A stretch of 64,000 bases of DNA from Candidatus Babelota bacterium (GTDB lineage: Bacteria; Babelota; Babeliae; Babelales; Vermiphilaceae), in the NCBI GenBank assembly GCA_040878395.1, contig JBBDMI010000006.1, positions 67,145 to 131,144 of the forward strand, in the 5' to 3' direction. Positions within the stretch are counted from its first letter, which is position 1. Each line of letters opens with the position of its first letter. Below the pieces are notes generated by a model that worked only from the letters and a program-made list of their open reading frames with translations, was not told the DNA's origin and searched no databases. A program made the translations under genes and the position numbers. Below, in pieces: positions 8,728-48,530 of this stretch.

Positions 8728-9747
8728 TTAATCAACAAACTTTTTAAAATATTCAATCGTTTTCTGTAAACCATTAATCAAATGAACCTGAGGAGACCAA
8801 TTAAGTTCTTTTCTTGCCAATAAAATATCGGGCTTTCTGCGACATGGATCATCTTTTGGCAATCTTAAATATACAATTTGCGAGTCACTCTGTATTGAAT
8901 GTAAAATCATTTCAGCAAGCTGAACTAAATTATATTCATCAGGATTTCCTAAATTAATCGGACCGGTAAAATCTGAAGCTGTATCGAACATCATAGATAT
9001 GAACCCATCAATTAAATCATCAACATAACAAAATGATCGTGTTTGTAATCCACTACCATAAATAGTTAATGGCTCACCTTTTAATGCCTGCATAATAAAA
9101 TTACTCACGACACGCCCATCTCTAGGGTCCATGTTTGGGCCATAGGTATTAAAAATGCGCACAACCTTAATAGGAACATTATATTGTCTATGATAATCAA
9201 AAAATAATGATTCAGCACAACGTTTGCCTTCGTCATAACATGAACGAATGCCGATCGGGTTAACCAAACCACGATATGTTTCAACCTGTGGATGTACTTC
9301 CGGATCACCATAAACTTCACTCGTTGAAGCCTGCATAATTAGAGCATTATATTTTTTTGCTAATTCAAGCATATTTATTGCACCTAACACGCATGTCTTA
9401 GTCGTAAAAATAGGATCTTTTTGATAATGTGGCGGCGATGCCGGACAAGCTAAATTAAAAATGTAATCGACTTGAATATCCAATGGATATGTAATGTCAT
9501 GATGCTTAAATGAAAAACGCTTATCTTCAAATAAGGACTCAATATTATCTAAACGTCCTGTATAAAGATTATCTACTGCAATCACGTTATAATCTAAATC
9601 AAGCAATCTTTTACACAGATGACTTCCTAGAAAGCCGGCACCTCCTGTCACCAACACGTTCTTTTGTTGCTCTTGCGTATAAATACAAGGAAAGCTAATC
9701 ACACTGATCACAAAAAACAACCATTGTTTATAGTTGTTCATTATCAT
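8728..9747 (-). CDS. uxs: UDP-glucuronate decarboxylase (UDP-xylose synthase) with N-terminal membrane anchor/signal peptide
   Basis: VLVTGGAGFLGSHLC, VDNLYTGR, ASTSEVYGDPEVHPQ, NPIGIRSCYDEGKRCAE, RIFNTYGP, DGRVVSNFIMQALKGEPLTIYGSGLQTRSF. This is close to near-identical with human UXS1 motifs. Leader MIMNNYKQWLFFVISVISFPCIY. AGGA lies upstream of the ATG. Confidence 0.85.
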   Translation of the reverse strand: MIMNNYKQWLFFVISVISFPCIYTQEQQKNVLVTGGAGFLGSHLCKRLLDLDYNVIAVDNLYTGRLDNIESLFEDKRFSFKHHDITYPLDIQVDYIFNLACPASPPHYQKDPIFTTKTCVLGAINMLELAKKYNALIMQASTSEVYGDPEVHPQVETYRGLVNPIGIRSCYDEGKRCAESLFFDYHRQYNVPIKVVRIFNTYGPNMDPRDGRVVSNFIMQALKGEPLTIYGSGLQTRSFCYVDDLIDGFISMMFDTASDFTGPINLGNPDEYNLVQLAEMILHSIQSDSQIVYLRLPKDDPCRRKPDILLARKELNWSPQVHLINGLQKTIEYFKKFVD

Positions 9748-9798
9748 TATAAATCCTATATATTTTTAGGAAATAAATAATAACTTTATAAGCTATTT

Positions 9799-10470
9799 TT
9801 ATTTTGTGTTATCAATAAGAAAAATTTGATGCACCGCATTGCCGATTCTAAAATTCATAACTGGTGTTCCATCAATAAAAAACGGTGCTTTTCTTAAATC
9901 GATTTTATGACCACCACCCACTTGAATATCAGGGTTATCACTAGACAAATTATGTGGATACACTTCATTGATAATTAAACAATATTTATATTTCTTTAAT
10001 TGTGGAAGAAAGCGCTTGATATCTTCATTTGGCAAATGTTGAAGCACATGCTTACAAACTAAAAGATCTGCTGACGGCAAATCCATAGTCACTAAATTGC
10101 CAAACTCAAAATGAATATTTGAAGAACCAAATCGCTTTATATTTTTATTAATTACGCTCTCAACAACATCACAGCCAAAGTAATCGATACCATTCCAATC
10201 GATATACCTTGTTGATTCCCAATCACCACAGCCTGCATCCACTACAGATCTGATATTATGTTCACGCATAAATTTTTCTACAAAATGATTATATTCTAAA
10301 CAGTTGGCAAGCAAAGAGCCTCCGCCCGAAAAACCTTCTCCCTGTGCATTTTTGCCCCAGACTGCATTGTGATAAATGTTTGAAAAAACATTTTCATGTC
10401 GATCTGCATTCAAAAGCACGGCTGAACAAATACTGGCAACAAAAATAAGATGAAATTTTACTGTATTCAT
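9799..10470 (-). CDS. class I SAM-dependent methyltransferase with signal peptide
   Basis: VVDAGCGDWESTRYIDW and DLLVCKHVLQHLPNED. Paralog of 2547 and 23485. Start set at the ATG of MNTVKFHLIFVASICSAV, preceded by GGAG 7 nt upstream (the ORF-track start is TTG). Confidence 0.65.
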   Translation of the reverse strand: MNTVKFHLIFVASICSAVLLNADRHENVFSNIYHNAVWGKNAQGEGFSGGGSLLANCLEYNHFVEKFMREHNIRSVVDAGCGDWESTRYIDWNGIDYFGCDVVESVINKNIKRFGSSNIHFEFGNLVTMDLPSADLLVCKHVLQHLPNEDIKRFLPQLKKYKYCLIINEVYPHNLSSDNPDIQVGGGHKIDLRKAPFFIDGTPVMNFRIGNAVHQIFLIDNTK

Positions 10471-10488
10471 TTTTTTCTCCAATATATA

Positions 10489-11076
10489 TTAAGGAACCAC
10501 TGCAACCATTACATTTTGAGGATATTCACCATCATCACCACCAGGAATATAATACACATCGTAATTAGGATTAATCTCTTTAATTTTAGCAATCAAATCT
10601 GCTTGTATTAAACCATCGAAAGCTTCAGTGCCAGCACAATGCATATCATCAATTAAAATAGTATGTGTTTTAATCGGATGCCATGAAATTTGTTCTAGCT
10701 CTTCAATTAATGGACAATTTTTACCACCATCGGCGCGCACTGGCCATACATGCGCATCAAGCCAAAATGTTGCAGGCTTATCCAAATCTTTAATTATATC
10801 CCAAAGGTCTGTCGCTGAACTCCCTTTATATATGGCTACATTTGAATGTGAAGCAAAACGATTTCTTACTTTACGATATGTGCTTTCCTTAAATTCTATA
10901 GACCTAAACTCTTTAAATGCACCAGTTGCTATTGCTTTTTGCAGTCCGTGCCCAGCTGAAGTACCAGTTTCAACAAAATAATAATTTGCATAGGAAGCAA
11001 ACCCTTGTGGACCTATATTTGCTTTACCTGTAGCAAAAACAAGTAACAAAATATATAACATTTTTTGTATATTCAT
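10489..11076 (-). CDS. hypothetical exported protein, possibly methyltransferase-fold
   Basis: 195-aa ORF. Leader MNIQKMLYILLLVFATGKA. YFVETGTSAGHGL, FWLDAHVW and ILIDDMH loosely recall CmcI/FkbM-like MTases. Weak assignment. Confidence 0.3.
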   Translation of the reverse strand: MNIQKMLYILLLVFATGKANIGPQGFASYANYYFVETGTSAGHGLQKAIATGAFKEFRSIEFKESTYRKVRNRFASHSNVAIYKGSSATDLWDIIKDLDKPATFWLDAHVWPVRADGGKNCPLIEELEQISWHPIKTHTILIDDMHCAGTEAFDGLIQADLIAKIKEINPNYDVYYIPGGDDGEYPQNVMVAVVP

Positions 11077-11128
11077 TCTTTCTTCCTTTCAACCAAATCA
11101 AAATTTAAACAACAATAAATTAAGTTAA

Positions 11129-11968
11129 CTAATTTAAATTCCAACTACTATTTTTTTCATATCCCAAATCTATAAGCAAGTCGCCAGCAACATCTTTAAA
11201 CTCCTCAACGTGATGTGGCTTAAAGTATCTCCTCCAAGAGCCTATTCTTTTCCTTCCATTTGGATCAATTTCCCCATGAGTCTGCTCTGATAACTCCAAA
11301 GCTCTTTCGTGGGATAAGTCAATTCCAATATGCCTTGCAATGTTTTTAAGCTCTCTTACTTGCACATCACTTGAGCCTCCACTATAAGCACCCGCTAATT
11401 TTTCATAGGAAGTTACATATACAAAATCATCTCCAAATTTTGTCCATTCAAAATATCTATGATACAAATCATCAATTCCTTTAAAATCTTTCAACTCTGG
11501 ATTGATCCAATGGTTGATGCCCCAATAGAGCTCTGAAGTGTTAAAAATCCACTGCGATAGAGCTTCATCAAAAGATTTTGAAACCAAGCGGGGAAACCAC
11601 TTTTTCCTTTTCACCATATTAATCATAGACACTGCCTGATCGCGAGGGTCCCTAAAAATAAATACTACTTTAAAACCGGCCTTTTTTAACCTTTCGATAT
11701 TTTCTGCTGTGGGCAATGCATGTCCTATTATGGCCTTTTTAGTTTTCACATCTTTATCTGTAATCACAAGATGATCATTTTCTGCATGCTTAAACTTAAT
11801 TTCAGGAGAAATCAAATTTATACAGATTTGCAAAAGCTGTGTTCCACATTTGGGTATAGATGCAATTAAAATGTTACTTGGTACAGCAGATACTTGTAAA
11901 CTTAACAATAACACTCCCAAGTATAATGTTTTATTTTTGATGACCCTACAATAATATTTATTCATCAT
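11129..11968 (-). CDS. sulfotransferase with signal peptide
   Basis: SIPKCGTQLL (5'-PSB-like), FIFRDPRDQAVS (3'-PB-like), C-terminal LLIDLGYE. Start set at MMNKYY..LGVLLLSLQVSA, with GAAGGA upstream. Confidence 0.7.
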   Translation of the reverse strand: MMNKYYCRVIKNKTLYLGVLLLSLQVSAVPSNILIASIPKCGTQLLQICINLISPEIKFKHAENDHLVITDKDVKTKKAIIGHALPTAENIERLKKAGFKVVFIFRDPRDQAVSMINMVKRKKWFPRLVSKSFDEALSQWIFNTSELYWGINHWINPELKDFKGIDDLYHRYFEWTKFGDDFVYVTSYEKLAGAYSGGSSDVQVRELKNIARHIGIDLSHERALELSEQTHGEIDPNGRKRIGSWRRYFKPHHVEEFKDVAGDLLIDLGYEKNSSWNLN

Positions 11969-12000: not shown

Positions 12001-12750
12001 TTATACATTATTTTCAGGTTTACGTGCAAAAGCCCATGCAATGATTGGACAATGCATATGATTAATTCCAGGATTACTTAACATACGATAATCAGGAAAA
12101 CCCTGTGTTTCAAAAGCCTTTTTTAAATATTCAAAATTCCCCCATTGACCAATACTTAACAATTCAAATCCCGCCTCTTGAAGCATCGCTCCAATACCGA
12201 CTGGAGTAAACCCTGTATAAAAATGATAGGGAGTTTCATGCGGAATACTCGTGGTGGGAACGTTAAAATATAAAATCCCACCTGGCTTCATATATTTAAA
12301 TATATTTTTTAAGCAACGAATAGGATCATAGACGTGCTCGAACGTTTGATTCACCATAACAAAATCAAAATCATGCTCATCCAATTCAAACACATGCAAA
12401 TCATATTTTTCTGGATTATGAGAGTAATTTATTACTGAAACATGTTGATGAGATATATAAGCCCATTCAGGATCTTTTCCATTGATAGCCAAACCTTTTA
12501 CCGAAAAACATTGGTTTTCTTGCACAAAACGTTCAAATTCTAAAAGAGCTATTACACGTGGAAAATCTTTGTGCTCCCAACGCCATGCCTTATTATTTTT
12601 TGCTATCGGCAATGGGTCATAACGATATGTGTATTCATGAGTGTAATTCGGCTTTACAAATCTTTCATAAATTATATTGATATCAGCTCGATCCAAATAA
12701 TTTGCGTATGAAAGTAAAGGAGCCAAAACTGATAATATGATTTTTTTCAT
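12001..12750 (-). CDS. SAM-dependent methyltransferase (Methyltransf_11-like) with signal peptide
   Basis: FDFVMVNQTFEHVYDPIRCLKNIFKYMKPGGILYF. Leader MKKIILSVLAPLLSYA. Confidence 0.5.
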   Translation of the reverse strand: MKKIILSVLAPLLSYANYLDRADINIIYERFVKPNYTHEYTYRYDPLPIAKNNKAWRWEHKDFPRVIALLEFERFVQENQCFSVKGLAINGKDPEWAYISHQHVSVINYSHNPEKYDLHVFELDEHDFDFVMVNQTFEHVYDPIRCLKNIFKYMKPGGILYFNVPTTSIPHETPYHFYTGFTPVGIGAMLQEAGFELLSIGQWGNFEYLKKAFETQGFPDYRMLSNPGINHMHCPIIAWAFARKPENNV

Positions 12751-12768: not shown

Positions 12769-13476
12769 TTACGTTTTTTTTGATAACACAGCAACATATA
12801 GGCCATTCCACCAAGTCTCTGGATCTCCAACTTTTTTGGCTGGCAACACGATTTCATATAAAATAGTATACTCTAACTTCTGAAAAGCTGCCCTCGTTCC
12901 TTTTGGTACATTCGGAAAATTCCAATCATCTACAATTGCAATAAATGTATCGGCAAAAACATCATTAAAATAAGTAAAAGCTCTCTCTTGGTCTCTTACC
13001 GTATGCTCACCATCATAAAAATATATATTTACCGGATTCTCAAATAATCCATCTTTATCAAGGACAAAACAATCTTGCTCATAAAATCTATAGTTTACAT
13101 CATTAATAAGACTACAATTTCTTTTAAACTCTTGTTTAGGGCCACCAAATAATGACCAGTTATCACATGCAACAGCTTCAACAACACTTGAGCCATTTCC
13201 ATAAAGTGAAGCTATAAAAGTAGAACCTTTCCATGTGCCAATTTCAAAATAAGTACTATTTTCAAGAGTACAGATATTATTCAATAAATGTTTGACTTTT
13301 CTACTGGTCATACCCTCGATACTAAGCGCTTCAGGAGTCAATTTAGACTGATCATTTTTTGCAAATTCTATACATTTCTTTACATGTTCCACTAAAGAGC
13401 GCTCACCGAACATTAAGTGAGTACCAGTTAAAACAATCAAACAAAACATTTTAGAAGCCAAGAGAAAACGATGCAT
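12769..13476 (-). CDS. putative class I methyltransferase (Methyltransf_24-like) with signal anchor
   Basis: YFEIGTWKGSTF, IYFYDGEHT, IVDDWNF. Leader MHRFLLASKMFCLIVLTG. Confidence 0.4.
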   Translation of the reverse strand: MHRFLLASKMFCLIVLTGTHLMFGERSLVEHVKKCIEFAKNDQSKLTPEALSIEGMTSRKVKHLLNNICTLENSTYFEIGTWKGSTFIASLYGNGSSVVEAVACDNWSLFGGPKQEFKRNCSLINDVNYRFYEQDCFVLDKDGLFENPVNIYFYDGEHTVRDQERAFTYFNDVFADTFIAIVDDWNFPNVPKGTRAAFQKLEYTILYEIVLPAKKVGDPETWWNGLYVAVLSKKT

Positions 13477-13565: not shown

Positions 13566-14573
13566 TCAACTTACAAATAAATGCAATTTTTTACTATGAA
13601 TGTGAAGATTATTTATCCTACATTCCGTTTTACCAAATCTAGCAAAAGGTACCCGCCGCCCCTTCTGATCAATATTCCAAGTGAAGGATAAAAATGAAGG
13701 ATCAAATAAACAGCTTTCGTTGATAAAACCCGATTTTGATAGTCCATTCCTTGGATCAATACCACCTAAATACTGTCCTAAAGCTGCTGCATCAAAAATT
13801 GAATTAAACTCTGAAAAGAAATGTGCATAATCTTCTGGACTTTGCGCTGTATGACCTTTAGTTGATTTTAATTCACAAACATCAAGATATTCACGCATAA
13901 TTATTGGTAAGTGCGCAATTTCTTTTTTGCCAAAAGTCTGTCTATATTTTGCGATAATCTGCATATCATTCATCGTATTTTTCGCTTGATGCGCAACAAA
14001 ATCAACCAATTTTTCAATGGCCAGTTCATGAGCAAAATAAATAAAACCGGCAATACATCTACCATCATTATCGAATGTAGCAGCAATATTAGAATATGTA
14101 TGAAAAACCGGTAAAAGCTCATTTAAATCAACATAAAGCATATTATCATATTCTAAATGAAAAACGTCTTCAAGCTGATATTGATTCATGAGTTCATGCA
14201 CTAAAAAAAAACGTTCGGTTGTTTTTCGCCAAAAGCCTTGACGAAAACCATTATCTAAACGATTTTGCTGCTCAAAAAGTTCATGCATAAAACTTTTTTC
14301 TAGACTTTCACATGCAACAAAAATAATTTTATCATCATAAAACCTCACATCTGATATTTTTCTGATTGCCTCATTTTCCGCTATCACAAAGATGCGTGCT
14401 TCAGTATTAAATAAGCGAGCTTGATGAGTTGCATCAGCTAAATAATGAGGAAGCGTATTACCCAGATGCGCAAAAACAATTGAATATGCATCTATAACAT
14501 TGCATCCAAATAGCATGAAAAATATACATGCAAACGTGCTATTTTTAACCTTTATATGTGTGACATGAAACAT
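13566..14573 (-). CDS. hypothetical anchored protein (possible glycosyltransferase)
   Basis: 345-aa ORF. ATG start at 14573 (MFHVTHIKVKNSTFACIFFMLFGC) with AGAGGA upstream; the ORF-track start is TTG. Overlaps the upstream gene's 3' end. No secure motif (VFHLEYDNMLYVD might be a DXD-like site). Confidence 0.35.
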   Translation of the reverse strand: MFHVTHIKVKNSTFACIFFMLFGCNVIDAYSIVFAHLGNTLPHYLADATHQARLFNTEARIFVIAENEAIRKISDVRFYDDKIIFVACESLEKSFMHELFEQQNRLDNGFRQGFWRKTTERFFLVHELMNQYQLEDVFHLEYDNMLYVDLNELLPVFHTYSNIAATFDNDGRCIAGFIYFAHELAIEKLVDFVAHQAKNTMNDMQIIAKYRQTFGKKEIAHLPIIMREYLDVCELKSTKGHTAQSPEDYAHFFSEFNSIFDAAALGQYLGGIDPRNGLSKSGFINESCLFDPSFLSFTWNIDQKGRRVPFARFGKTECRINNLHIHSKKLHLFVS

Positions 14574-36184: not shown

Positions 36185-36188
36185 AAAA

Positions 36189-38666: not shown

Positions 38667-38676
38667 TATCATCCTT

Positions 38677-39798: not shown

Positions 39799-39817
39799 TC
39801 TCATCCTTTTTTTTACC

Positions 39818-41008: not shown

Positions 41009-41290
41009 CTATTTTGTATTAGTTATAATTTCTCCGACTATATCTAATACTATAATTCCAGCATAAACGGCAAAGATCGCTAATCCGGCTTTATAATAGA
41101 CATCACGCCATTCATTATCTACCAATTCTTGAGTGCTCGGACTTATAAGATAAACTGCCTCGCCATTTTTAACCATTTCTTCTGTTTTTTCATCTACATA
41201 AAAAATATCTGTATCGATTGTATTTGCATGCAGTAATGAGATATTACCAAAAAAAAGTAAAAAACTTAAAAAAATAATTCGCAACATCAA
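41009..41290 (-). CDS. small membrane/secreted protein
   Basis: 93 aa. Leader MMLRIIFLSFLLFFGNISLLHA and a C-terminal TM helix (AGLAIFAVYAGIIVLDIVGEII). Confidence 0.5.
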   Translation of the reverse strand: MMLRIIFLSFLLFFGNISLLHANTIDTDIFYVDEKTEEMVKNGEAVYLISPSTQELVDNEWRDVYYKAGLAIFAVYAGIIVLDIVGEIITNTK

Positions 41291-42755: not shown

Positions 42756-44804
42756 TTAAAAGCTGTTCATTTGAGTATGCAATTTCCTACTCGCTTTACT
42801 TTCATGGAAGCAACGATGATAACACACATCATCTTTGTCAAAGATGTATACAAATGCACCATTAAAACCGGTACGAGTTGAAACATATTGATCATCAATA
42901 GCATATGTATAATCATAATACTTATGTTCAATTTTACCTGGAATAACAATTGCATATAAATTTGCCGGAACATATAAACCTATATCATCACACAACTGTT
43001 TATACTTACCGTCAACTGTATCATCTATGCGCACACCATAAGACAAATAATCATCGAGTTGATTACTAAAGAGATGAAACTTATCAGTTGCATCTTTATG
43101 TTTCTCTTTATAATTGTCATGCAAACGAACTGCCTTTGGTGAATTTTCCTTTGACAATGCACGGCGATTATACAAAACAAGTGTCATAGGATAACGACCC
43201 AACTGTCTAAATGCCGCATGTGAATCATCAACTTGCAAGACGCACGTTTCACAATCAAATATATGTGATGGATCCACTTGCAACCATTTTACACTTTTTT
43301 GCTTTACTTCTTTTTTATCATCAGGTAACGATACTATTTCTTTCTTTACACTTGCCGGTGGCGAACTGCTAAAAGCATTTTTTCTAGCTAATTTTTTTGC
43401 TCTTCTTTTAGCTTGTTGCTTTTGTTTTTGCGAAACTTGTTTTTGTTGTTGAACCATCTGACGCTGTAATAGTCGAGCAATTGCTTTATGGTCATTTTGC
43501 TTTGCAATATCAATCGGCTTTTTACCATACTTATCAGCTTGATGCAGATCTGCTTTATAATTAATAAGAACTTCTACCGCATCCAAGCAACCATATTGAG
43601 CTGCAAGAAATAATGGCGACACTCCGTGACTATCACTTATATTGGCCAACTTCTTATCATATGAACATAGTTTATTAATTAAATAAGGACGATCATATTG
43701 CGCAGCTTTATGCAACGCTGTAAAACCTTCATCAACTTCTACTAACTGCGTACGAGCATTTACTTGATATTTTAATAAAAGATCTACTATATGAGGATGC
43801 CCCTCTAAAACAGCAAAATATAATGGCGTACTTCCTTGATGCGCAATAGCATCCTTATTTGCACCATTTCTTAACAAATATGTTGCAATATCAAGATGCC
43901 CCTGTGAACATGCAATATGCAATGGAACAATGCCACTTGAAGTTTTTGCATGTATATCAGCATCTAATGTTATTAATCTTTTTACTGCAGAAAGTTTGCC
44001 GACATGCACCGCTGTATGCAATGACGTAACTCCTGAATCTGAAGCGATATCAACAGGAACGCCTCTTTCTTTTACCAATAATTCGATAATACCTATAAGA
44101 TCGCGTTGAGCCGCAAAATGTAACGCTGTATGCCCTTTAGCATTTTGCGCTTTCAGATCAATGCCAGTAGATACTAAATATTTCGATAATTGTTCAAAAC
44201 TCAATACAATAGCTAAATGCAATAAAGTATTGCCACCAGCTGTTTTGAAATGTAGATTTGCGCCTTTACTCAATAAAAAAGTCACCATTTCAAGTTGATC
44301 ATTAATAACAGCCATGGAAAGTGGTGTGTGCCTATCTATTGATAAAGCTTCCAAATCTATGCCCTGATCTATCAATAATTCTGCAATTTTAATACGACCA
44401 TGAAGCGCCGCCAAATGAAGTGCAGTACAATGCTTTTTGCTCACTAATGTCTTATCAGCACCAGCATCAAGCAAAAGTTTAGTTATATCAAAATAACCTT
44501 CTTGCGCAGCTATCAACAACGGAGTGCAACCATTATGCCGAACATTAATATCAACTCCCGGAAACTTCACAAAAGCTTTTACTGTTTCAACGTCTCCATT
44601 ATATGCTGCTGCAACTAAAACAATTTGTTTATATGGTAATAAATGCTTAAGTGCCTCATTTTTATACTGAGCATTGTTTGTTGCACAAGCTAATTGATAC
44701 ACGCTGCTCCACTTGGCAGCTTCGTTGAAATCTTGATCACTAGCTTTTAAATAGCCAAAAATGGATATCAAACAGATAAACATAGAAAATAATTTACGTT
44801 TCAT
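42756..44804 (-). CDS. ankyrin-repeat protein (~11 repeats) with signal peptide, Lys/Gln-rich linker and unknown ~200-aa C-terminal domain
   Basis: Repeated G-x-TPL-H-x-A...G...hh..Ll..GA motifs (CTPLLIAAQEGYFDITKLLLDAGAD, CTALHLAALHGRIKIAELLIDQGID, and so on). Linker QQQKQVSQKQKQQAKRRAKKLARK. Leader MKRKLFSMFICLISIFGYLKA. Confidence 0.85.
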   Translation of the reverse strand: MKRKLFSMFICLISIFGYLKASDQDFNEAAKWSSVYQLACATNNAQYKNEALKHLLPYKQIVLVAAAYNGDVETVKAFVKFPGVDINVRHNGCTPLLIAAQEGYFDITKLLLDAGADKTLVSKKHCTALHLAALHGRIKIAELLIDQGIDLEALSIDRHTPLSMAVINDQLEMVTFLLSKGANLHFKTAGGNTLLHLAIVLSFEQLSKYLVSTGIDLKAQNAKGHTALHFAAQRDLIGIIELLVKERGVPVDIASDSGVTSLHTAVHVGKLSAVKRLITLDADIHAKTSSGIVPLHIACSQGHLDIATYLLRNGANKDAIAHQGSTPLYFAVLEGHPHIVDLLLKYQVNARTQLVEVDEGFTALHKAAQYDRPYLINKLCSYDKKLANISDSHGVSPLFLAAQYGCLDAVEVLINYKADLHQADKYGKKPIDIAKQNDHKAIARLLQRQMVQQQKQVSQKQKQQAKRRAKKLARKNAFSSSPPASVKKEIVSLPDDKKEVKQKSVKWLQVDPSHIFDCETCVLQVDDSHAAFRQLGRYPMTLVLYNRRALSKENSPKAVRLHDNYKEKHKDATDKFHLFSNQLDDYLSYGVRIDDTVDGKYKQLCDDIGLYVPANLYAIVIPGKIEHKYYDYTYAIDDQYVSTRTGFNGAFVYIFDKDDVCYHRCFHESKASRKLHTQMNSF

Positions 44805-44974: not shown

Positions 44975-45805
44975 TCACCGATTTTCGGCATAGCGTAATT
45001 TTAAATATTTTTGCCAAATATGTGGAAAGACATGAGCAATATATAGATCAAGCTTACGACGTTCATCAGACGAAACTAGCAAAGCATGATGCTTTGTTTT
45101 TTCGCCTTTAGTTAAAGAGGTGTCTTCCTGCTTTTCATACATCGATAAACTTGCTAATTTGTGTTCATCATACTGTGCCATAAAATCGTCTAGATATTCT
45201 GGACTAACATTTAAAAAATTCAGTAATTTTTTAAACACCTGCTCAGGCTGTGTAATCAAATCTTCATAATAAATGAGATGCCTTTTGTCAGGACACCATT
45301 CATCATACAACTTTAAAATATCAAAATAGTTCATGGTTAAGGTATTGTTAAATAGCTCTTTTGCTGTTGGATTATCAAGCGACCTGTTTTTATTTCGCCG
45401 TGAAAGCAGATTAAAAATTCTTGGCAACGCCTCTTTTGGATTACGCACAATCACAATTAAAGTTTCTTGTTGCGAATCGAATGTACCCATCATTTTCATT
45501 TGATCAATATAATGTACTTTCCAAATAGGCAACTTATTATAATCAGTTTGCATATCAAACCAATAACCGAAAGGACAGTTGATTTTTGTTATTTTTTCGG
45601 TACGCATCTCCAACGTCGGACGCTTGGTTAAATATTCAAGACAATAACGCAACCATGTGTTTCCTGAACCGGGAAATGAAAGTAAATAGGTTTTTGGTGC
45701 ATCAGTATAGAACCGAGAAAGATTCATCTGATCAACATCAACCCATTCGCCAACTTTTGCATAAAAAGAACAAAAAATAAGTAGGGTGAATAACATTTTC
45801 TTCAT
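44975..45805 (-). CDS. sulfotransferase-like protein with signal peptide
   Basis: LLSFPGSGNTWLRYCLEYL (P-loop-like PAPS 5'-phosphosulfate site) and VIVRNPKEALPR (3'-PB-like). Leader MKKMLFTLLIFCSFYA. Confidence 0.5.
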   Translation of the reverse strand: MKKMLFTLLIFCSFYAKVGEWVDVDQMNLSRFYTDAPKTYLLSFPGSGNTWLRYCLEYLTKRPTLEMRTEKITKINCPFGYWFDMQTDYNKLPIWKVHYIDQMKMMGTFDSQQETLIVIVRNPKEALPRIFNLLSRRNKNRSLDNPTAKELFNNTLTMNYFDILKLYDEWCPDKRHLIYYEDLITQPEQVFKKLLNFLNVSPEYLDDFMAQYDEHKLASLSMYEKQEDTSLTKGEKTKHHALLVSSDERRKLDLYIAHVFPHIWQKYLKLRYAENR

Positions 45806-45898
45806 AGCATTTTACTTTCATTTTGTTGTTTTACTTCCTGTGCTCATCTAGCATTAAATGCAACCTTAACACAAAGATATCGTAATATACCTATAGAT

Positions 45899-46996
45899 CT
45901 ATATTTCCAACTGTGCTATTTTTTGGCCTACAGTCATAACGCCGGACATTTGTTCATTATTTAGCAACTCTTGCTCATCAGCTTTAATCATGATACTAAC
46001 CAATTCATAAAAGGTGACCTTTGGTTTCCACTGCAAAATCTTTTCTGCTTTTGAAGCATCACCACGCAATTGCTCAACCTCTGTTGGTCTAAAATATTGT
46101 GGATCTACTGCGACAATTTTATTTCCTGTATCAGCATCAATTGCATAAGCATCTTTACCGTGGCCAAGCCATTGCAACTTAATATCCACACATGCAAACG
46201 CCAAATCAACAAATTCACGGACACTGTGCATCTGCCCGGTCGCAATAACTAAATCATGCGGTCTCTCTTGTTGTAACATAAGCCACATAGCCTCTACATA
46301 ATCTTTTGCATATCCCCAATCACGCTTTGCATCTAAATTACCCAAATATAATGTTTGTTGCACGCCATGTTTTATGCGCACAGCTGCACGGGTAATTTTA
46401 CGCGTTACAAAAGTCTCACCACGCATTGGAGATTCATGATTAAATAAAATACCATTACATGCAAACATGCCATAGGCTTCGCGATAATTTTTTGTTATCC
46501 AATATGCATACAGTTTTGCTGCAGCATACGGCGAACGTGGTGCAAATGGGGTATGTTCATTCTGTGGACACTCAGTCGCATTACCATATAATTCACTCGT
46601 GGAAGCTTGATAAAAACGTACTTTTTCAGTTAAACCTAAAATACGAATAGCTTCTAACATACGCAGTGTGCCAAGTCCATCAGCTTGTGCTGTATACTCC
46701 GGTGTTTCAAATGAAACTGCAACATGACTTTGCGCTGCTAAATGATAAATCTCATCAGGTTGAATTTCCTGAATAACACGGATTAAATTGGTAGAATCGG
46801 TGACATCGCCATAATGCAACTGAAAGCGTCGCTCAGGCGATTCATGTTGATCTTGAAATAGGTGGTCAACACGTGAAGTATTAAATGAAGAAGAGCGCCG
46901 CTTGATGCCATGCACTTCATATCCTTTTTGCAATAACAGCTCTGCTAAATATGAACCATCTTGTCCGGTGACACCGGTAATAAGCGCTCTTTTCAT
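45899..46996 (-). CDS. gmd: GDP-mannose 4,6-dehydratase (canonical, no leader)
   Basis: [75 protein letters not shown] 7 nt upstream of the ATG. Confidence 0.9.
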
Positions 46997-47101
46997 TGTG
47001 CTATCCTTACTTTATTACAAATACAGAGTAAATGCATTTAATTTTGAATCTAAAAACTGTTTTTTAAGTTCATTCATCACTCTTTACAATAAAAATCATT
47101 T

Positions 47102-47295
47102 CCATTTTGTCATTCCTGAAGGGAATCCAGTGGTAACCGGTATGATTTTTAAGAAAACCTTGCCAAAATGATTTATAATTTTTTTACAAATTATTTTTGA
47201 TAATATTCCTTTGATTATTGAACAATCTTCTTTGCCCAGTCTTTGTCCAAACTATGCCGGTTACCGCTGGATCCCCTTCAGGGATGACAAAATGG
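47102..47295. mobile_element. MITE-like element, second full-length copy (inverted relative to 6203..6384)
   Basis: Ends are ccattttgtcattcctgaagggaatccagtggtaaccgg and ccggttaccgctggatccccttcagggatgacaaaatgg. The reverse complement of the core shares aataatcaaaggaatattatca...ataccggttacc with the 6.2-kb copy. A 13-nt terminal fragment gatgacaaaatag recurs at 47353-47365. Confidence 0.8.
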
Positions 47296-47408
47296 GCAAA
47301 TTACTTTGTTTTTTGCACCTGAATTGTCACATTAAATTGTTTAAACATACTTGATGACAAAATAGGAGGTTATTTCATTTTAAGTAAATTTAAAAACATT
47401 TGCCCTAA

Positions 47409-48530
47409 TTACAGATGTTTTTTATAACTACCTTGTTTTAATAATTTTACAATGCCACGCACATTTTCCGCAGCATCACGCTTGGTAATCAACAGTGCAT
47501 CATCAACTTCGACAACACACAAATCATCAACACCAACAAGCGCAACCAATTTACCCGGGACATCAACTAAATTATTACGTGCATCAACACCAATAAAATT
47601 CGCATCCAAAGTGTTATACTGTTGTTTCAATGACAAAAACACCTCAATGTTTCCTACATCACACCAAGAAAAATCAACCGGCATAACCGAAACATGCTTG
47701 CTTCGTTCCATAACGGCATAATCAATTGAATCGGCAACAACTTTTTCATAGCTACCAACATTGTCTAAGTAGTTTTTAACACCTGCGAACATTTCCGATG
47801 CTTCTTGTTGAAACTCACGCATAAACGTTGAAGCCTGTGCACAAAAAATACTTATATTCCAAAGTTTATTGCCTTGTTCGATATATTGTTGTGCAACTTC
47901 GAATGACGGCTTTTCACGGAAACGACTCACTTTATATGGCGCTTGTTGCTCTAATGCATCCTGTGGATCAAATTCAATATATCCATAACCGGTTGCAGGA
48001 TAAGTCGGCTCTACACCAAGTAGTACGATATCATCATGCTTTGTTGCATGATCAACTGCATGATCTAAAAAGTCTCTACACTTTTCCCAATCACGTTTTG
48101 GAATAAACGGATCTGCCGGCAGGAAAACAATAACAGCATTTGGATCAATTGCATGGATTTCCATACAACATAATAAAATTGCAGGTCCGGTGTTGCGCGA
48201 ACCAGGCTCAACTAAAATACGCCCAACACGATGCTCAACAGATAACCGAATGTTTTCTTCATGCTTAGCTGTTGTACTTATCCAAATATGATCTTTTGTT
48301 GTCATCGGCGCAATACGATCAATTGCTTGCTCAAGTAACGTAACATCAGAACCTAATGTTAATAGCTGTTTTGGCTTGCATTGTCGACTCAACGGCCATA
48401 AGCGAGAACCATCACCACCGGCTAAAATAACACAATACAGATTTTTTTTATTCATATTAGTTCCGTGTGCTGTAAATGCTGAACATGCGACCAATAAACA
48501 CGCAAATAGTTTTTTACCATGAAATACCAT
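47409..48530 (-). CDS. manC: mannose-1-phosphate guanylyltransferase with signal peptide-like leader
   Basis: YCVILAGGDGSRLWPLSRQCKPKQLL plus an NTP-transferase fold. The start at Met13 (MVFHGKKLFACLLVACSAFTAHG) has AGGAG 7 nt upstream. An internal Met38 (48455, MNKKNLYCVILAGG) would give a canonical leaderless form but has no clear SD. Confidence 0.8.
   Translation of the reverse strand: MVFHGKKLFACLLVACSAFTAHGTNMNKKNLYCVILAGGDGSRLWPLSRQCKPKQLLTLGSDVTLLEQAIDRIAPMTTKDHIWISTTAKHEENIRLSVEHRVGRILVEPGSRNTGPAILLCCMEIHAIDPNAVIVFLPADPFIPKRDWEKCRDFLDHAVDHATKHDDIVLLGVEPTYPATGYGYIEFDPQDALEQQAPYKVSRFREKPSFEVAQQYIEQGNKLWNISIFCAQASTFMREFQQEASEMFAGVKNYLDNVGSYEKVVADSIDYAVMERSKHVSVMPVDFSWCDVGNIEVFLSLKQQYNTLDANFIGVDARNNLVDVPGKLVALVGVDDLCVVEVDDALLITKRDAAENVRGIVKLLKQGSYKKHL

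What the first reader, a model, noticed from the sequence alone, without database searches (positions are those of the whole stretch)
8728..48530. Sec-type leader or signal anchor on nearly every enzyme, including nucleotide-sugar synthases that need cytosolic substrates
Seen: by eye about 49 CDS in the window start with a short K/R-rich segment plus a 12-20-residue hydrophobic core, often ending in small residues. Examples are MKKNILLVSSLLMSLWGF, MKQFILIIIVLLSQYTFS and MKKIIICSLVLLQCVAMGA. This applies to essentially all GT2, GT32, GT47, GT6, sulfotransferase and methyltransferase proteins. It also applies to UXS (8728), Gmd copy 1 (38677), Fcl (39892) and ManC (47409). The leader-containing starts are supported by Shine-Dalgarno motifs: AGGAG 7 nt before ManC Met13, AAGGA before Gmd1, GGAGA before Fcl, AAGGAGG before the GT32 at 19202. 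In Gmd1, homology to canonical Gmd begins exactly after ..SIHA. Controls without leaders in the same island are Gmd copy 2, WecB-WecC, the oxidoreductase and one FkbM. Established: Leloir glycosyltransferases, SAM methyltransferases and PAPS sulfotransferases use cytosolic donors that are absent from a bacterial periplasm. The N-terminal anchor plus lumenal catalytic domain is the Golgi type II layout. Inference, three options: (a) the enzymes are exported into a host cell or compartment that supplies donors; (b) an extracytoplasmic compartment is supplied with activated donors; (c) the genes were recently acquired from eukaryotes or viruses and retain their anchors. ManC (Met13/Met38) and Fcl (Met1/Met23) also have internal Met codons, so they could yield both leader-bearing and cytosolic isoforms.
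Basis: partly seen in the sequence, partly recalled or inferred. Interest (0 to 1): 0.9.

Follow-up and report, generated by a model that had tools for sequence, protein, structure and literature searches.

The report
Exported glycan-building enzymes in Dependentiae
In a parasitic bacterium that lives inside amoebae, about 40 sugar-chain-building enzymes, including some that make the activated sugars, carry export signals, so they probably work outside the bacterial cytoplasm on building blocks taken from the host.

Summary
The window comes from a Candidatus Dependentiae (TM6) genome. In it, 46 proteins plus an outer-membrane-protein control start with a positively charged tip, a hydrophobic core (median 12 residues, none 19 or longer) and a small-residue -3/-1 site. 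These are cleavable Sec-type signal peptides, not Golgi-style type II anchors.

- **Not chance:** the same test scores 2.4% of internal Met-anchored segments. Homologues of Fcl, Gmd and UXS in 78 other bacterial loci score 1-4%.
- **Real starts:** purine-rich ribosome-binding motifs precede them, and few genes have a usable downstream start.
- **Conserved:** the pattern recurs in five other Dependentiae genomes, including the cultured strain Noda2021. ManC, Gmd1, Fcl and the GT2, GT32, GT47-like, sulfo- and methyltransferases always carry leaders. WecB-WecC, the oxidoreductase and Gmd2 never do.
- **Drifting sequence, kept hydrophobicity:** leaders share 19% identity against 50% for the domain.

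The phylum is already known for signal peptides on about 44% of proteins and on ankyrin effectors, with a type II secretion system. Leaders on Leloir glycosyltransferases and nucleotide-sugar synthases were not reported in any paper I could search.

Best reading: glycan assembly outside the cytoplasm, fed by host-cytosol donors. Whether it happens in the periplasm, at the cell surface or in the host cytosol is unresolved. Recent eukaryotic origin of the leaders is not supported.

The parts
109..1326 (-). TPR repeats plus GT9-like glycosyltransferase, leader MKYIFLLLCSFSFVCA
   Evidence: Pfam; NCBIfam; leader
1331..2521 (-). unknown 396-aa protein with leader MRKQLIVSLLCMHFGLMS
   Evidence: no Pfam or NCBIfam hit; leader
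2547..3386 (-). class I SAM methyltransferase with leader MQKKIFIILFISSQAFG
   Evidence: Pfam; start and SD; leader
3620..5188 (-). LEADERLESS methyltransferase-GT2 fusion with hydrophobic C-terminal tail; resembles polyprenyl-phosphate glycosyltransferases (AglJ, ArnC, dolichyl-P hexose transferase)
   Evidence: Pfam; NCBIfam (below curated cut-offs); no leader
5264..6097 (-). GT6 glycosyltransferase (ABO / alpha-3-GalT family, DXD kept) with leader MKKNILLVSSLLMSLWG
   Evidence: Pfam; PDB; leader
6471..7259 (+). PAPS-type sulfotransferase with leader MNIKKTVFISLLFIFAQSHA
   Evidence: Pfam; leader
7269..7934 (+). LEADERLESS FkbM methyltransferase
   Evidence: Pfam
8018..8512 (-). LEADERLESS, apparently truncated FkbM methyltransferase fragment
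   Evidence: Pfam
8728..9747 (-). UDP-glucuronate decarboxylase (UXS) with leader; homology to human UXS1 starts at residue 25
   Evidence: Pfam; PDB; homologues
9799..10470 (-). SAM methyltransferase with leader MNTVKFHLIFVASICSAVLLNA
   Evidence: Pfam
10489..11076 (-). unknown 195-aa protein with leader
11129..11968 (-). sulfotransferase with leader
   Evidence: Pfam
12001..12750 (-). SAM methyltransferase with leader MKKIILSVLAPLLSYA
   Evidence: Pfam
12769..13476 (-). Methyltransf_24-like protein with leader
   Evidence: Pfam (weak)
13566..14573 (-). unknown protein with leader
14545..15402 (-). DUF6492 protein with leader; the only one without a -3/-1 site
   Evidence: Pfam
15399..16334 (-). 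GT47 / RXYLT1-like glycosyltransferase with leader
   Evidence: Pfam (below cut-off)
16469..17455 (-). GT32 (Gly_transf_sug, DXD) with leader
   Evidence: Pfam
17439..18221 (-). FkbM methyltransferase with leader
   Evidence: Pfam
18249..19202 (-). GT32 with Gb3_synth region and leader; AAGGAGG upstream
   Evidence: Pfam
19492..20481 (+). unknown 329-aa protein with leader MKQFILIIIVLLSQYTFS
   Evidence: AF2 model unusable
20573..21373 (+). sulfotransferase with leader MKKTLIILLLLSLNPMTYT
   Evidence: Pfam
21472..22407 (-). GT32 with leader
   Evidence: Pfam
22404..23360 (-). GT47 / RXYLT1-like protein with an atypical N-terminal hydrophobic segment: no N-terminal charge, KK after it, so topology is ambiguous
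   Evidence: Pfam
23485..24165 (+). SAM methyltransferase with weaker leader MKKFFLTLTTISALTVA
   Evidence: Pfam (missed by the rule)
24263..25045 (-). sulfotransferase-like protein with leader
   Evidence: Pfam
25204..25788 (-). unknown protein with leader MKKSFISLAFSLMLIFSMKA
25861..26739 (-). GT-A-like protein with leader (weak match to the TIGR04440 glycosyltransferase domain model)
26764..27615 (-). GT2 with leader
   Evidence: Pfam
27627..28511 (-). GT2 with leader
   Evidence: Pfam
28589..29524 (-). GT32 with leader
   Evidence: Pfam
29598..30404 (-). GT2 with leader
   Evidence: Pfam
30401..31234 (-). GT2 with leader; representative of a family of at least 1448 members, all named ones from Dependentiae or Babeliales
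   Evidence: AF2 pLDDT 93.7; fold matches
31343..31930 (-). unknown 195-aa protein with leader
31968..32795 (-). GT2 with leader
   Evidence: Pfam
32897..33787 (+). GT2-like protein with leader
   Evidence: Pfam (weak)
33799..35220 (+). GT2 (473 aa) with leader
   Evidence: Pfam
35221..36144 (-). GT32 with leader
   Evidence: Pfam
36189..37130 (-). GT32 with leader MKKIIICSLVLLQCVAMGA; weak similarity to Legionella SetA
   Evidence: Pfam; PDB
37140..38672 (-). GT2 (510 aa) with leader
   Evidence: Pfam
38677..39804 (-). GDP-mannose 4,6-dehydratase copy 1 with leader ..[12 protein letters not shown]; catalytic motifs intact by eye
39892..40899 (-). GDP-fucose synthase (Fcl) with leader MMKRGLSMVMAGLTAAVSCQA; an internal Met is conserved in 6 orthologues
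   Evidence: Pfam
41009..41290 (-). small ORF (93 aa) with leader and a C-terminal hydrophobic segment
41299..41613 (-). small ORF (104 aa) with leader
41639..42592 (-). unknown 317-aa protein with leader
42756..44804 (-). ankyrin-repeat protein (682 aa) with the same type of leader
   Evidence: Pfam
44975..45805 (-). sulfotransferase with leader
   Evidence: Pfam
45899..46996 (-). LEADERLESS GDP-mannose 4,6-dehydratase copy 2 (69% identical to copy 1)
47409..48530 (-). mannose-1-phosphate guanylyltransferase (ManC) with leader, starting at Met13
   Evidence: Pfam
48514..49854 (-). polytopic GT-C (PMT_2 / ArnT-like) membrane glycosyltransferase. An acidic motif H-x-D-x-D-S-x-x-Y-D follows the first membrane helix and is conserved in orthologues
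   Evidence: Pfam; NCBIfam; orthologues; no PDB sequence match
49844..52006 (-). LEADERLESS 720-aa ADH_zinc_N plus GFO_IDH_MocA oxidoreductase
   Evidence: Pfam; NCBIfam; conserved
52003..54582 (-). LEADERLESS WecB-WecC fusion (UDP-GlcNAc 2-epimerase plus UDP-ManNAc dehydrogenase)
   Evidence: Pfam; conserved
54662..55387 (-). ankyrin-repeat protein with leader MKKMILLSLLIASSGQLFSA
   Evidence: Pfam
56148..56705 (-). unknown 185-aa protein with leader
59869..61179 (+). WD40-like protein with leader
   Evidence: Pfam (weak)
61565..62590 (-). Legionella_OMP-family outer-membrane protein. It serves as the internal positive control for an exported protein, and its leader has the same form as those of the enzymes
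   Evidence: Pfam

Best explanation
The window is a conserved glycan-biosynthesis island of an intracellular, host-dependent Candidatus Dependentiae bacterium.

Shown. Nearly all of its soluble enzymes carry genuine N-terminal leaders with the anatomy of cleavable Sec signal peptides. These include about 18 Leloir glycosyltransferases, 5 PAPS-type sulfotransferases, 6 SAM methyltransferases, and the nucleotide-sugar enzymes ManC, Gmd1, Fcl and UXS. The feature is conserved across the lineage.

Inferred. The enzymes are translocated unfolded across the inner membrane. They then fold and load their cofactors, and they work outside the bacterial cytoplasm. Their donors (GTP and Man-1-P, GDP-Man, NADPH, UDP-GlcA, other NDP-sugars, PAPS, SAM) come from the host cytosol in which these bacteria replicate.

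Most likely site (weakest step). The periplasm or cell surface, reached by host metabolites through outer-membrane porins. There the soluble enzymes would extend a glycan started by the leaderless, classically arranged part of the locus. In that part, WecB-WecC, the oxidoreductase and Gmd2 act in the cytoplasm, and a polyprenyl-phosphate GT2 feeds a GT-C (PMT_2) transferase whose active loop faces the periplasm.

The arrangement would be a functional analogue of ER priming followed by Golgi elongation, but it uses cleaved signal peptides rather than type II anchors. Onward release of some enzymes into the host cytosol by the phylum's type II secretion system cannot be excluded.
For: Source.
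- GT2 and UXS of the window are 100% identical to NCBI proteins of a Candidatus Dependentiae MAG.

Leader anatomy.
- 47 leaders have a median hydrophobic core of 12 residues (range 8-18) and a mean n-region charge of +1.8.
- 46 of 47 have a -3/-1 site, the same as the porin control.
- At hand-placed sites, position -1 is A, S or G in 45 of 46, and median leader length is 19.
- No twin-arginine motif occurs among 120 Gmd N-termini.

Starts.
- SD-like motifs sit before the leader starts, and few genes have an SD-supported downstream start.

Not chance.
- 2.4% of internal controls score as leaders. Homologues elsewhere score 1-4%.

Selection.
- 76 of the top 120 Gmd1 homologues carry leaders of unrelated sequence, and they cluster together in a tree.
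- About 110 of 120 GT2 homologues carry leaders.
- GT2 leaders are 19% identical against 50% for the domain, yet 51 of 51 keep the hydrophobic core.
- The closest ~25 UXS homologues mostly carry leaders.

Discrimination by function, conserved in L006, L082, L085, L086 and L089.
- ManC, Fcl, Gmd1, GT2, GT32, GT47-like, sulfo- and methyltransferases and NodZ have leaders.
- WecBC, the oxidoreductase, Gmd2 and the ribonucleotide reductase subunits do not.
- In strain Noda2021, UDP-glucose dehydrogenase and a NUDIX hydrolase also carry leaders. This implies NAD+ and nucleotide-diphosphate substrates exist outside the cytoplasm.

Biology from papers.
- 44% of Chromulinavorax CDS and 78% of its ankyrin proteins have signal peptides. 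It replicates in the host cytoplasm, shows no complete metabolic pathways and has no LPS genes (PMC6561590).
- Babela has a type II secretion system as its only secretion system, and its signal-peptide ankyrins are inferred to be secreted into the amoeba cytoplasm (PMC4378268).
- Noda2021 cells lie among host mitochondria (PMC8812299).

Envelope link.
- The GT-C, the polyprenyl-P GT2-like enzyme and WecBC are syntenic with the leader-bearing genes in four or five genomes.
Against: - There are no localisation or cleavage data. SignalP, DeepTMHMM and Phobius were not available. The leader calls rest on my own heuristics, and the cleavage sites were placed by hand.
- 14 of 47 leaders do not have more positive charge on the N side than on the C side. 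3 of 46 have net +2 in the first six mature residues. Gmd1 has K at +1. All of these can hinder Sec export.
- One GT47-like protein (22404-23360) looks like a reverse anchor.
- About a third of the leaders have uncharged runs of 18 or more residues and could be uncleaved anchors.
- Sec export of enzymes that hold NAD(P)+ or FAD tightly is unusual. Such proteins normally use Tat.
- Permeability of the outer membrane to molecules of 500-750 Da is assumed, not shown.
- The leaderless WecBC and Gmd2 show that the bacterial cytoplasm does hold some nucleotide sugars. So 'no donors inside' is not the whole rationale.
- Ankyrin and WD40 proteins carry the same leaders. These make sense only in the host, so a leader cannot separate a periplasmic from a host-cytosolic destination.
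- Cysteine depletion in leader-bearing Gmd is modest (1.97 against 2.76, p = 0.003) and is not corrected for phylogeny.
Confidence: 0.45

Rival explanations
1. Secreted effectors. The enzymes pass the Sec system and then the type II secretion system into the host cytosol. There they use host donors to modify host proteins or glycoconjugates, or to rewire the host nucleotide-sugar pools. They do not build a bacterial envelope glycan.
For: - Ankyrin and WD40-like proteins in the same island carry the same leaders.
- The literature infers Sec plus type II secretion of signal-peptide proteins into the amoeba cytoplasm (PMC4378268; PMC6561590).
- The GT32 proteins match the TcdA/TcdB glycosyltransferase region, and one weakly matches Legionella SetA.
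- GT6 makes host-like blood-group-type linkages.
Against: - About 40 tandemly expanded GT, sulfotransferase and methyltransferase genes plus donor-synthesis enzymes look like an assembly line for a complex glycan. They do not look like single-target toxins.
- The repertoire varies between genomes, as surface-glycan loci do.
- Synteny with a periplasm-facing GT-C, a lipid-phosphate GT2-like enzyme and WecBC is conserved.
- Soluble enzymes diluted in the host cytosol would make a poor multistep pathway (inference).
Confidence: 0.25
2. The hydrophobic N-termini are membrane tethers, not export signals. They hold the enzymes at the cytoplasmic face of the inner membrane, or serve as reverse anchors. 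Catalysis would then stay cytoplasmic, as in ordinary bacteria.
For: - 14 of 47 leaders lack the expected charge bias.
- 22404-23360 has no N-terminal charge and has KK after the segment.
- Several early mature regions are basic.
- This reading would remove the donor-supply paradox.
Against: - Cores with a median of 12 residues are too short to span a membrane.
- 46 of 47 have -3/-1 sites, and position -1 is mostly Ala.
- The bona fide porin has the same kind of leader.
- In this phylum the same leaders sit on ankyrin proteins that must leave the cell.
- The phylum keeps separate leaderless and leader-bearing Gmd and UXS copies.
Confidence: 0.08
3. The enzymes are secreted into a host-derived, ER/Golgi-like vacuole. 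Host nucleotide-sugar and PAPS transporters in the vacuole membrane would supply its lumen.
For: - Babela is seen in a vacuole early in infection.
- Eukaryotic UXS1 itself works in the Golgi lumen (my own knowledge).
- The families are eukaryote-like: GT6, GT32 with Gb3_synth, GT47/RXYLT1-like, and Sulfotransfer_1.
Against: - The leader-bearing ManC needs GTP and Man-1-P. Fcl needs NADPH. The UDP-glucose dehydrogenase of Noda2021 needs free NAD+. None of these is supplied to ER or Golgi lumina (established biochemistry).
- Chromulinavorax and Noda2021 lie in the cytoplasm among mitochondria.
Confidence: 0.07
4. The leaders are relics of type II anchors on genes recently taken from eukaryotes or giant viruses.
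For: The GT2 family's nearest structural and sequence relatives outside the phylum are giant-virus proteins from Terrestrivirus and Yasminevirus, with TM-score 0.82-0.87 and 28-30% identity. The best PDB matches reach TM-score 0.62 and 18% identity. Several families are eukaryote-like.
Against: - The leaders are signal-peptide type, not anchors.
- Gmd1, Fcl, ManC and UXS are bacterial-type enzymes with an added leader.
- The leader-bearing clades are old and diverse.
- The viral-contig GT2 homologue has no leader.
Confidence: 0.03
5. Artefact: the starts are wrongly placed, or hydrophobic N-termini arise by chance in an AT-rich genome.
For: Gene callers truncated some orthologues, for example ManC in L085. 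AT-rich genomes are rich in Ile, Leu and Phe codons.
Against: - 2.4% of internal controls score as leaders, against 84% of N-termini.
- SD motifs sit at the leader starts.
- The pattern is conserved in genomes of 38-42% GC.
- Leaderless controls exist in the same operons.
Confidence: 0.02

Closest known systems
Sec/type II secretome of Dependentiae (Babela massiliensis, Chromulinavorax destructans)
   Same: Same phylum and the same kind of N-terminal signal peptide. Signal peptides are reported on 44% of CDS and on most ankyrin proteins. A type II system is the only secretion system found, and the proteins are inferred to act in the host cytoplasm (PMC6561590, PMC4378268).
   Different: Those papers describe proteases, nucleases, ankyrins and ORFans. 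The Chromulinavorax text never uses a word beginning 'glycosyl', and the only one in the Babela text is a DNA glycosylase. Here a whole Leloir-type glycan pathway carries the signal, including ManC, Gmd, Fcl and UXS in this window and UDP-glucose dehydrogenase in strain Noda2021.
Eukaryotic ER/Golgi glycosylation (PMT priming, type II Golgi glycosyltransferases and sulfotransferases, lumenal UXS1)
   Same: The catalytic domains lie on the non-cytosolic side of a membrane. A GT-C transferase with a lipid-phosphate donor accompanies soluble-domain Leloir enzymes. The families overlap: GT6, GT32 with Gb3_synth, GT47/RXYLT1-like, Sulfotransfer_1, and UXS about 60% identical to human UXS1.
   Different: The proteins have cleavable signal peptides and no stem region, not uncleaved type II anchors. 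No nucleotide-sugar transporters are evident. ManC, Gmd and Fcl are never lumenal in eukaryotes (my own knowledge).
Secreted bacterial glycosyltransferase toxins and effectors (TcdA/TcdB, Legionella SetA and Lgt, NleB/SseK)
   Same: These are bacterial Leloir enzymes that use host-cytosol UDP-sugars. The GT32 proteins match the TcdA_TcdB catalytic region, and one weakly matches SetA.
   Different: Those are single enzymes delivered by T3SS, T4SS or self-translocation onto defined host proteins (my own knowledge). Here about 40 enzymes have Sec leaders, together with donor-synthesis enzymes, sulfation and methylation.
Autonomous glycosylation machinery of amoeba-infecting giant viruses (Mimiviridae, Klosneuvirinae)
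   Same: A parasite of the same hosts builds its own complex surface glycans inside the host cytoplasm from host precursors, with its own GTs and nucleotide-sugar enzymes (my own knowledge). The Dependentiae GT2 family's closest relatives outside the phylum are giant-virus proteins.
   Different: The viral enzymes are not known to need an export signal, because they act in the host cytoplasm (my own knowledge). The one viral-contig homologue I could read has no leader. The bacterium has to move its enzymes across its own inner membrane.
Classical bacterial periplasmic glycosylation (ArnT, PglB, actinobacterial Pmt, Gtr systems)
   Same: The locus keeps this module: cytoplasmic nucleotide-sugar enzymes, a polyprenyl-phosphate GT2-like enzyme and a GT-C with a periplasmic acidic loop.
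   Different: In known systems every Leloir step is cytoplasmic, and only lipid-linked donors are used in the periplasm (my own knowledge). Here the Leloir enzymes themselves carry export signals.

Membership tests
Sec-type cleavable signal peptide (signal peptidase I substrate) | short, positively charged n-region | tested here: met
   Mean net charge is +1.8. 45 of 47 have at least one net positive charge, counting side chains only.
Sec-type cleavable signal peptide (signal peptidase I substrate) | hydrophobic h-region of about 7-15 residues, shorter than a membrane span | tested here: met
   The strict core has a median of 12 and a range of 8-18; none reaches 19. About a third have uncharged runs of 18 or more, so some could be anchors.
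Sec-type cleavable signal peptide (signal peptidase I substrate) | c-region with small residues at -3 and -1 | tested here: met
   46 of 47 have a compatible site. At hand-placed sites position -1 is A 27, S 11, G 7. This is a heuristic, not a trained predictor.
Sec-type cleavable signal peptide (signal peptidase I substrate) | neutral or acidic early mature region | tested here: inconclusive
   Net charge over +1 to +6 is 0 or negative in 34 of 46, +1 in 9 and +2 in 3. Gmd1 has K at +1.
Sec-type cleavable signal peptide (signal peptidase I substrate) | actual translocation and cleavage | not testable with these tools
   Needs N-terminomics or PhoA fusions. SignalP and DeepTMHMM were not available.
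Type II signal anchor (Golgi layout) | uncleaved hydrophobic span of about 17-25 residues | tested here: not met
   The core median is 12 and none reaches 19. Cleavage-type sites are present in 46 of 47.
Type II signal anchor (Golgi layout) | stem region between the anchor and the catalytic domain | tested here: not met
   Domains start 0-10 residues after the leader. In Gmd1 the domain starts right after SIHA. In UXS homology starts at residue 25. In the GT2 model the first strand starts at residue 22.
Tat signal peptide | twin-arginine motif S/T-R-R-x-F-L | tested here: not met
   0 of 120 Gmd-family N-termini have it. None is visible in the window leaders.
Bacterial lipoprotein signal | lipobox L-[AS]-[GA]-C | tested here: not met
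   Absent from nearly all leaders by eye. ManC (LVAC) and the porin (ATAC) are borderline, and the ManC motif is not conserved in orthologues.
Dependentiae Sec/type II secretome | encoded by a Dependentiae genome | tested here: met
   Proteins of the window are 100% identical to NCBI Candidatus Dependentiae MAG proteins. The locus is syntenic with those of Dependentiae DEP1 and Noda2021.
Dependentiae Sec/type II secretome | type II secretion system present, and the protein released beyond the outer membrane | not testable with these tools
   No secretion genes lie in the 64-kb window. The literature reports a type II system in Babela and JCVI TM6SC1.
Glycosyltransferase toxins of the TcdA/TcdB (GT44) kind | GT-A catalytic region with DXD | tested here: met
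   The GT32 proteins match PF12919 partially and PF04488 fully, and DTDFECLK is present.
Glycosyltransferase toxins of the TcdA/TcdB (GT44) kind | large multidomain toxin with translocation and receptor-binding parts, or a T3SS/T4SS signal | tested here: not met
   The proteins are about 310 aa with a single domain and a Sec leader. They are better filed as GT32.
Functional GDP-fucose and UDP-xylose synthesis enzymes | intact cofactor-binding and catalytic motifs in the leader-bearing copies | tested here: met
   By eye, Gmd1 has [16 protein letters not shown] and YxxxK, and UXS has GGAGFLGSH and YDEGK. Pfam matches are full-length. UXS is about 60% identical to human UXS1 over residues 25-337.

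The most novel reading that the evidence does not exclude
Dependentiae run a Golgi-like glycan assembly line in their periplasm or on their surface. Soluble Leloir glycosyltransferases, PAPS sulfotransferases, SAM methyltransferases and even nucleotide-sugar synthases would be Sec-exported. They would work on activated donors and cofactors that diffuse in from the host cytosol, and would extend a glycan primed by a GT-C transferase. To my knowledge this would be the first extracytoplasmic Leloir glycosylation in bacteria. It would mean the periplasm of a cytosol-dwelling parasite is metabolically an extension of the host cytosol.
Probability: 0.35. Interest if true: 0.9.

Novelty: new variant of a known kind. 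Interest (0 to 1): 0.75.

Why it matters
Textbook bacterial glycobiology places every nucleotide-sugar-, PAPS- and SAM-dependent step in the cytoplasm. Only lipid-linked donors are used beyond the inner membrane. Here a whole lineage of obligate intracellular bacteria has put export signals on those very enzymes and on the enzymes that make GDP-fucose and UDP-xylose. It also keeps leaderless copies for the classical steps.

If the enzymes are active where the signals send them, three things follow.
- A parasite has moved part of its metabolism into host-supplied space.
- This would explain how organisms with almost no biosynthetic capacity, and no LPS genes in the one isolate examined, can still make a complex fucosylated, sulfated and methylated coat.
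- It would give a bacterial counterpart to the autonomous glycosylation of giant viruses that share the same amoebal hosts.

The question can be tested directly, because strain Noda2021 has leader-bearing Gmd, Fcl, UDP-glucose dehydrogenase and GT2 and grows in Vermamoeba.

Tried and rejected
- **Exact look-up of Gmd1** found nothing, probably because gene callers chose another start. Gmd2 and the GT2 located the source instead.
- **Scanning GTDB genomes with Gmd1** returned mostly Bacteroidota at 65-70% identity, because Gmd is too conserved. The result was still useful as a negative-control set.
- **My first leader rule was too permissive.** It scored 32-36% of control ORFs. I therefore relied on homologue-matched and internal controls.
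- **Five literature searches** for glycosyltransferases or signal peptides in Dependentiae/TM6 found no paper on this. A sixth, broad search on periplasmic glycosyltransferases was only skimmed at the level of titles and abstract openings. A seventh, on Dependentiae/Noda2021, turned up the strain announcement used here.
- **Structure prediction of the unknown protein 19492-20481** from a single sequence gave pLDDT 33.7 and was unusable. BLASTP against the NodZ-like protein of L086 found nothing. My by-eye resemblance of HIRKGG to the fucosyltransferase motif remains only a lead.
- **PDB sequence searches** found nothing for the sulfotransferase, the GT-C or 19492-20481.
- **No tRNA or Rfam feature** lies in the window.
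- **A GT32 scan of viral contigs** found nothing.
- **Considered and rejected as explanations for the leaders:** Tat export, lipoprotein signals, type II anchors, eukaryotic origin of the UXS leader, and general dual-start isoforms.
- **Cysteine depletion** in leader-bearing Gmd is only weak support.

Full report
**What the window is.** The 64-kb window has 33% GC and is densely packed with genes. Nearly all lie on the minus strand, with short or overlapping gene junctions.
- one GT6
- eight GT2 or GT2-like proteins and one further GT-A-like protein
- six GT32 (Gly_transf_sug, with partial TcdA_TcdB matches, one with a Gb3_synth region)
- two GT47/RXYLT1-like proteins
- a TPR plus GT9-like protein
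- five Sulfotransfer_1 proteins
- six methyltransferases with leaders and two FkbM without
- UXS, two Gmd, Fcl and ManC
- a polytopic PMT_2 (GT-C) protein
- a WecB-WecC fusion and a 720-aa oxidoreductase
- two ankyrin proteins, a WD40-like protein and a Legionella_OMP-family porin

The GT2 at 30401-31234 and the UXS are 100% identical to NCBI proteins annotated 'MAG: Candidatus Dependentiae bacterium' on a 133,822-bp contig. Part of the locus is also on a Logan contig from run SRR27977663. So the source is a member of the candidate phylum Dependentiae (TM6), whose known members are obligate intracellular parasites of protists.

- With one fixed rule, 47 of 56 ORFs of at least 150 aa have a leader-like N-terminus.
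- A curated list has 46 proteins plus the porin. Three small ORFs add to it.
- The same rule scores 2.4% of 288 internal Met-anchored segments of the same proteins.
- In 78 gmd neighbourhoods of other bacteria it scores a crude 32% of soluble ORFs, against 85% here.
- Among true homologues in those loci it scores only 1/72 Fcl, 3/74 Gmd and 2/48 UXS-like proteins.
- UXS, Gmd1 and Fcl are 22-28 residues longer at the N-terminus than their canonical homologues. Gmd2 is not.
Purine-rich motifs precede nearly all leader-bearing starts. By my reading of that table, only four or five genes have an SD-supported in-frame start between the leader and the domain.

**What kind of leader?** The hydrophobic core has a median of 12 residues (range 8-18), and none reaches 19. 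The n-region carries +1.8 net charge on average. 46 of 47 have a -3/-1-compatible site. The porin, a protein that must be exported, has the same kind of leader. At sites I placed by hand, position -1 is A, S or G in 45 of 46 and the median leader length is 19. This is a plausibility check, not a test. No twin-arginine motif occurs, and lipoboxes are essentially absent. Catalytic domains begin within 0-10 residues of the leader. This is the anatomy of cleavable Sec signal peptides, not of Golgi type II anchors with stems.

Several caveats apply. 14 of 47 lack the expected charge bias. Three have a net charge of +2 in the early mature region. Gmd1 has K at +1. One GT47-like protein (22404-23360) looks like a reverse anchor. 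About a third have uncharged runs long enough to act as uncleaved anchors. No trained predictor was available.

**Is it selected?** Yes, across the lineage.
- Of the 120 best Gmd1 homologues, 76 carry leaders whose sequences are unrelated but whose pattern is the same. They group together in a distance tree, apart from the leaderless forms.
- Gmd1 is 69% identical to Gmd2 of the same genome.
- The GT2 family has at least 1448 members, and every named one is from Dependentiae or Babeliales. About 110 of the top 120 carry leaders.
- In an alignment of 51 GT2 proteins the leader region is 19% identical and the domain 50%. All 51 keep a strongly hydrophobic 10-mer.
- The closest ~25 UXS homologues mostly carry leaders. 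More distant ones do not, and these include some from Dependentiae, Babeliales and Parachlamydiales.

Five other genomes share the locus: L006 (Dependentiae DEP1), L082, L085, L086 and L089 (the cultured strain Noda2021). They also share the same division of labour. ManC, Fcl, Gmd1, GT2, GT32, GT47-like, sulfo- and methyltransferases and a NodZ-like enzyme have leaders. WecB-WecC, the oxidoreductase and Gmd2 do not. In Noda2021 a UDP-glucose dehydrogenase, a NUDIX hydrolase and a thioredoxin also have leaders, while the ribonucleotide reductase subunits do not. In L085 two FAD-type GMC oxidoreductases have them.

**What is already known.**
- In Chromulinavorax destructans 44% of CDS and 78% of ankyrin proteins have predicted signal peptides. 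The cell has two membranes, no LPS genes and no complete metabolic pathway. It replicates in the host cytoplasm, wrapped by the mitochondrion (PMC6561590).
- In Babela massiliensis 79 of 126 ankyrin proteins have signal peptides. A type II system is the only secretion system found, and secretion into the amoeba cytoplasm is inferred (PMC4378268).
- Noda2021 grows in Vermamoeba, and its cells are surrounded by altered mitochondria (PMC8812299).

So a large Sec-dependent secretome is a known trait of the phylum. None of my targeted searches found any mention of signal peptides on glycosyltransferases, sulfotransferases or nucleotide-sugar synthases in this phylum. The island is also enriched above the published genome-wide figure: 44 of 50 against 0.44, binomial p = 1e-10. 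That comparison uses a different species and a different predictor.

**How it most likely works.**
- *Shown:* the enzymes carry conserved Sec-type leaders, and the cell distinguishes them from leaderless enzymes in the same operons.
- *Established biochemistry:* the leader-bearing set needs GTP and Man-1-P (ManC), GDP-Man with bound NADP+ (Gmd), NADPH (Fcl), UDP-GlcA with bound NAD+ (UXS), PAPS, SAM and assorted NDP-sugars. That is a cytosolic metabolite pool.
- *Inferred:* Sec exports unfolded, cofactor-free chains and there is no Tat motif. So the destination must supply the cofactors and donors. For bacteria that sit in host cytoplasm, that pool is the host's.
- *Why not an ER/Golgi-like vacuole:* such a lumen would not provide GTP, Man-1-P, NADPH or NAD+, so that variant is unlikely.

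The leaderless part of the locus is classically arranged. It comprises WecB-WecC, the oxidoreductase, Gmd2, a methyltransferase-GT2 fusion that resembles polyprenyl-phosphate glycosyltransferases (AglJ, ArnC, below curated cut-offs), and a GT-C. In the GT-C an acidic H-x-D-x-D-S-x-x-Y-D motif follows the first membrane helix and is conserved in orthologues. Its synteny with the leader-bearing genes in four or five genomes leads me to favour an envelope-directed assembly line. In this model the GT-C primes an acceptor on the periplasmic side, and soluble exported enzymes then extend, fucosylate, xylosylate, methylate and sulfate it.

The number, tandem expansion and between-genome variability of the enzymes fit a surface glycan better than single-target toxins. 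This last step is the weakest. The same leaders sit on ankyrin and WD40-like proteins that make sense only in the host. A destination in the host cytosol through the type II system, with host targets, is therefore a serious rival. I give the composite best explanation 0.45, the effector reading 0.25, a non-exported tether 0.08, an ER/Golgi-like vacuole 0.07, an HGT relic 0.03 and an artefact 0.02.

**Origin.** The nucleotide-sugar enzymes are bacterial-type proteins with a leader added.
- The best non-Dependentiae Gmd relatives are Bacteroidota at 65-70% identity, and they have canonical starts.
- No eukaryote appears among the named UXS hits.
- A high-confidence model of the GT2 (pLDDT 93.7) is much closer to giant-virus proteins from Terrestrivirus and Yasminevirus (TM-score 0.82-0.87, 28-30% identity) than to any solved structure. 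The best PDB matches, K4CP, WrtF, TarP and SpsA, reach TM-score about 0.6 and 15-20% identity.
- This points to gene exchange among parasites of amoebae. Even so, the one viral-contig homologue I could read lacks a leader. The leaders therefore look like a Dependentiae addition, not a retained anchor.

**Isoforms.** Fcl keeps a Met 8-9 residues before the I[YF]VAGH motif in all six orthologues. This is probably the ancestral start. An SD-like motif upstream of it is strong only in L086 and moderate in L006. The internal Met of ManC is missing in L006 and L086. Dual localisation is possible for some genes but is not a general solution. How the leaderless Gmd2 gets GDP-mannose remains unexplained.

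**Verdict.** It is wrong on the type II anchor layout and on recent eukaryotic origin. The finding is a new variant of a known phylum trait. It carries a plausible and testable reading, periplasmic or surface Leloir glycosylation, that would be new to bacterial cell biology.

Noticed in passing
window 57774-58427 (-): A ParE-family toxin (57947-58231) is flanked by two small RelB-like antitoxin ORFs (57774-57944, 58218-58427). They sit in an otherwise gene-poor 2-kb stretch between the ATP-dependent DNA ligase and the WD40-like gene.
   Followed up: partly
window 39892-40899 and orthologues L006, L082, L085, L086, L089: All six Fcl orthologues keep a Met 8-9 residues before the I[YF]VAGH motif, just after the leader. 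It is likely the ancestral start codon. SD support for re-initiation is strong only in L086.
   Followed up: yes
window 45899-46996: The leaderless Gmd2 has no obvious leaderless ManC or Fcl partner in the locus. In L006 and L086 ManC cannot make a leaderless isoform. The source of cytoplasmic GDP-mannose and the fate of the Gmd2 product are unexplained. The adjacent 720-aa oxidoreductase may act on that product.
   Followed up: no
window 5264-6097: The GT6 protein keeps a D-x-D motif (YAIDADMAF), as in vertebrate ABO and alpha-3-GalT enzymes. From memory, known bacterial GT6 enzymes such as BoGT6a have N-x-N and are metal-independent. It matches human ABO transferase and BoGT6a about equally well (1e-31 and 2e-30).
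   Followed up: partly
L089 (Noda2021, AP025250) 8441-9853, 13763-14329, 1962-2588: In the cultured strain, UDP-glucose dehydrogenase, a NUDIX hydrolase and a thioredoxin also carry signal-peptide-like leaders. The ribonucleotide reductase subunits next to them do not.
   Followed up: partly
L085 5084-8853: Two tandem GMC-family (FAD-dependent) oxidoreductases with Sec-type leaders lie inside the homologous glycan locus. They are further cofactor-dependent enzymes that appear to be exported without a Tat motif.
   Followed up: no
window 30401-31234; BFVD matches: The GT2 family expanded in Dependentiae is closest in structure and sequence to proteins of the giant viruses Terrestrivirus and Yasminevirus (TM-score 0.82-0.87, 28-30% identity). 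This suggests gene exchange between amoeba parasites.
   Followed up: partly
window 8018-8512 and 8513-8727: The FkbM methyltransferase here is short (164 aa) and looks degraded. A 215-nt gap separates it from UXS. It is probably a decaying paralogue that has lost its N-terminal part.
   Followed up: no
window 41009-41290, 41299-41613, 59424-59741 (-): Three small ORFs (93-105 aa) have signal-peptide-like leaders and no family match. Two of them also have a C-terminal hydrophobic segment.
   Followed up: no
window 62617-63975 (-): A GH81 (endo-beta-1,3-glucanase) C-terminal domain protein has no leader. Its match begins at profile position 104, so its N-terminal part may lie beyond the window end or be disrupted.
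   Followed up: no
window 19492-20481 (+): This unknown leader-bearing protein contains HIRKGG, which resembles the HxRRGD motif of alpha-1,2/1,6-fucosyltransferases. No sequence or structure search supported this, so it is a lead only.
   Followed up: partly
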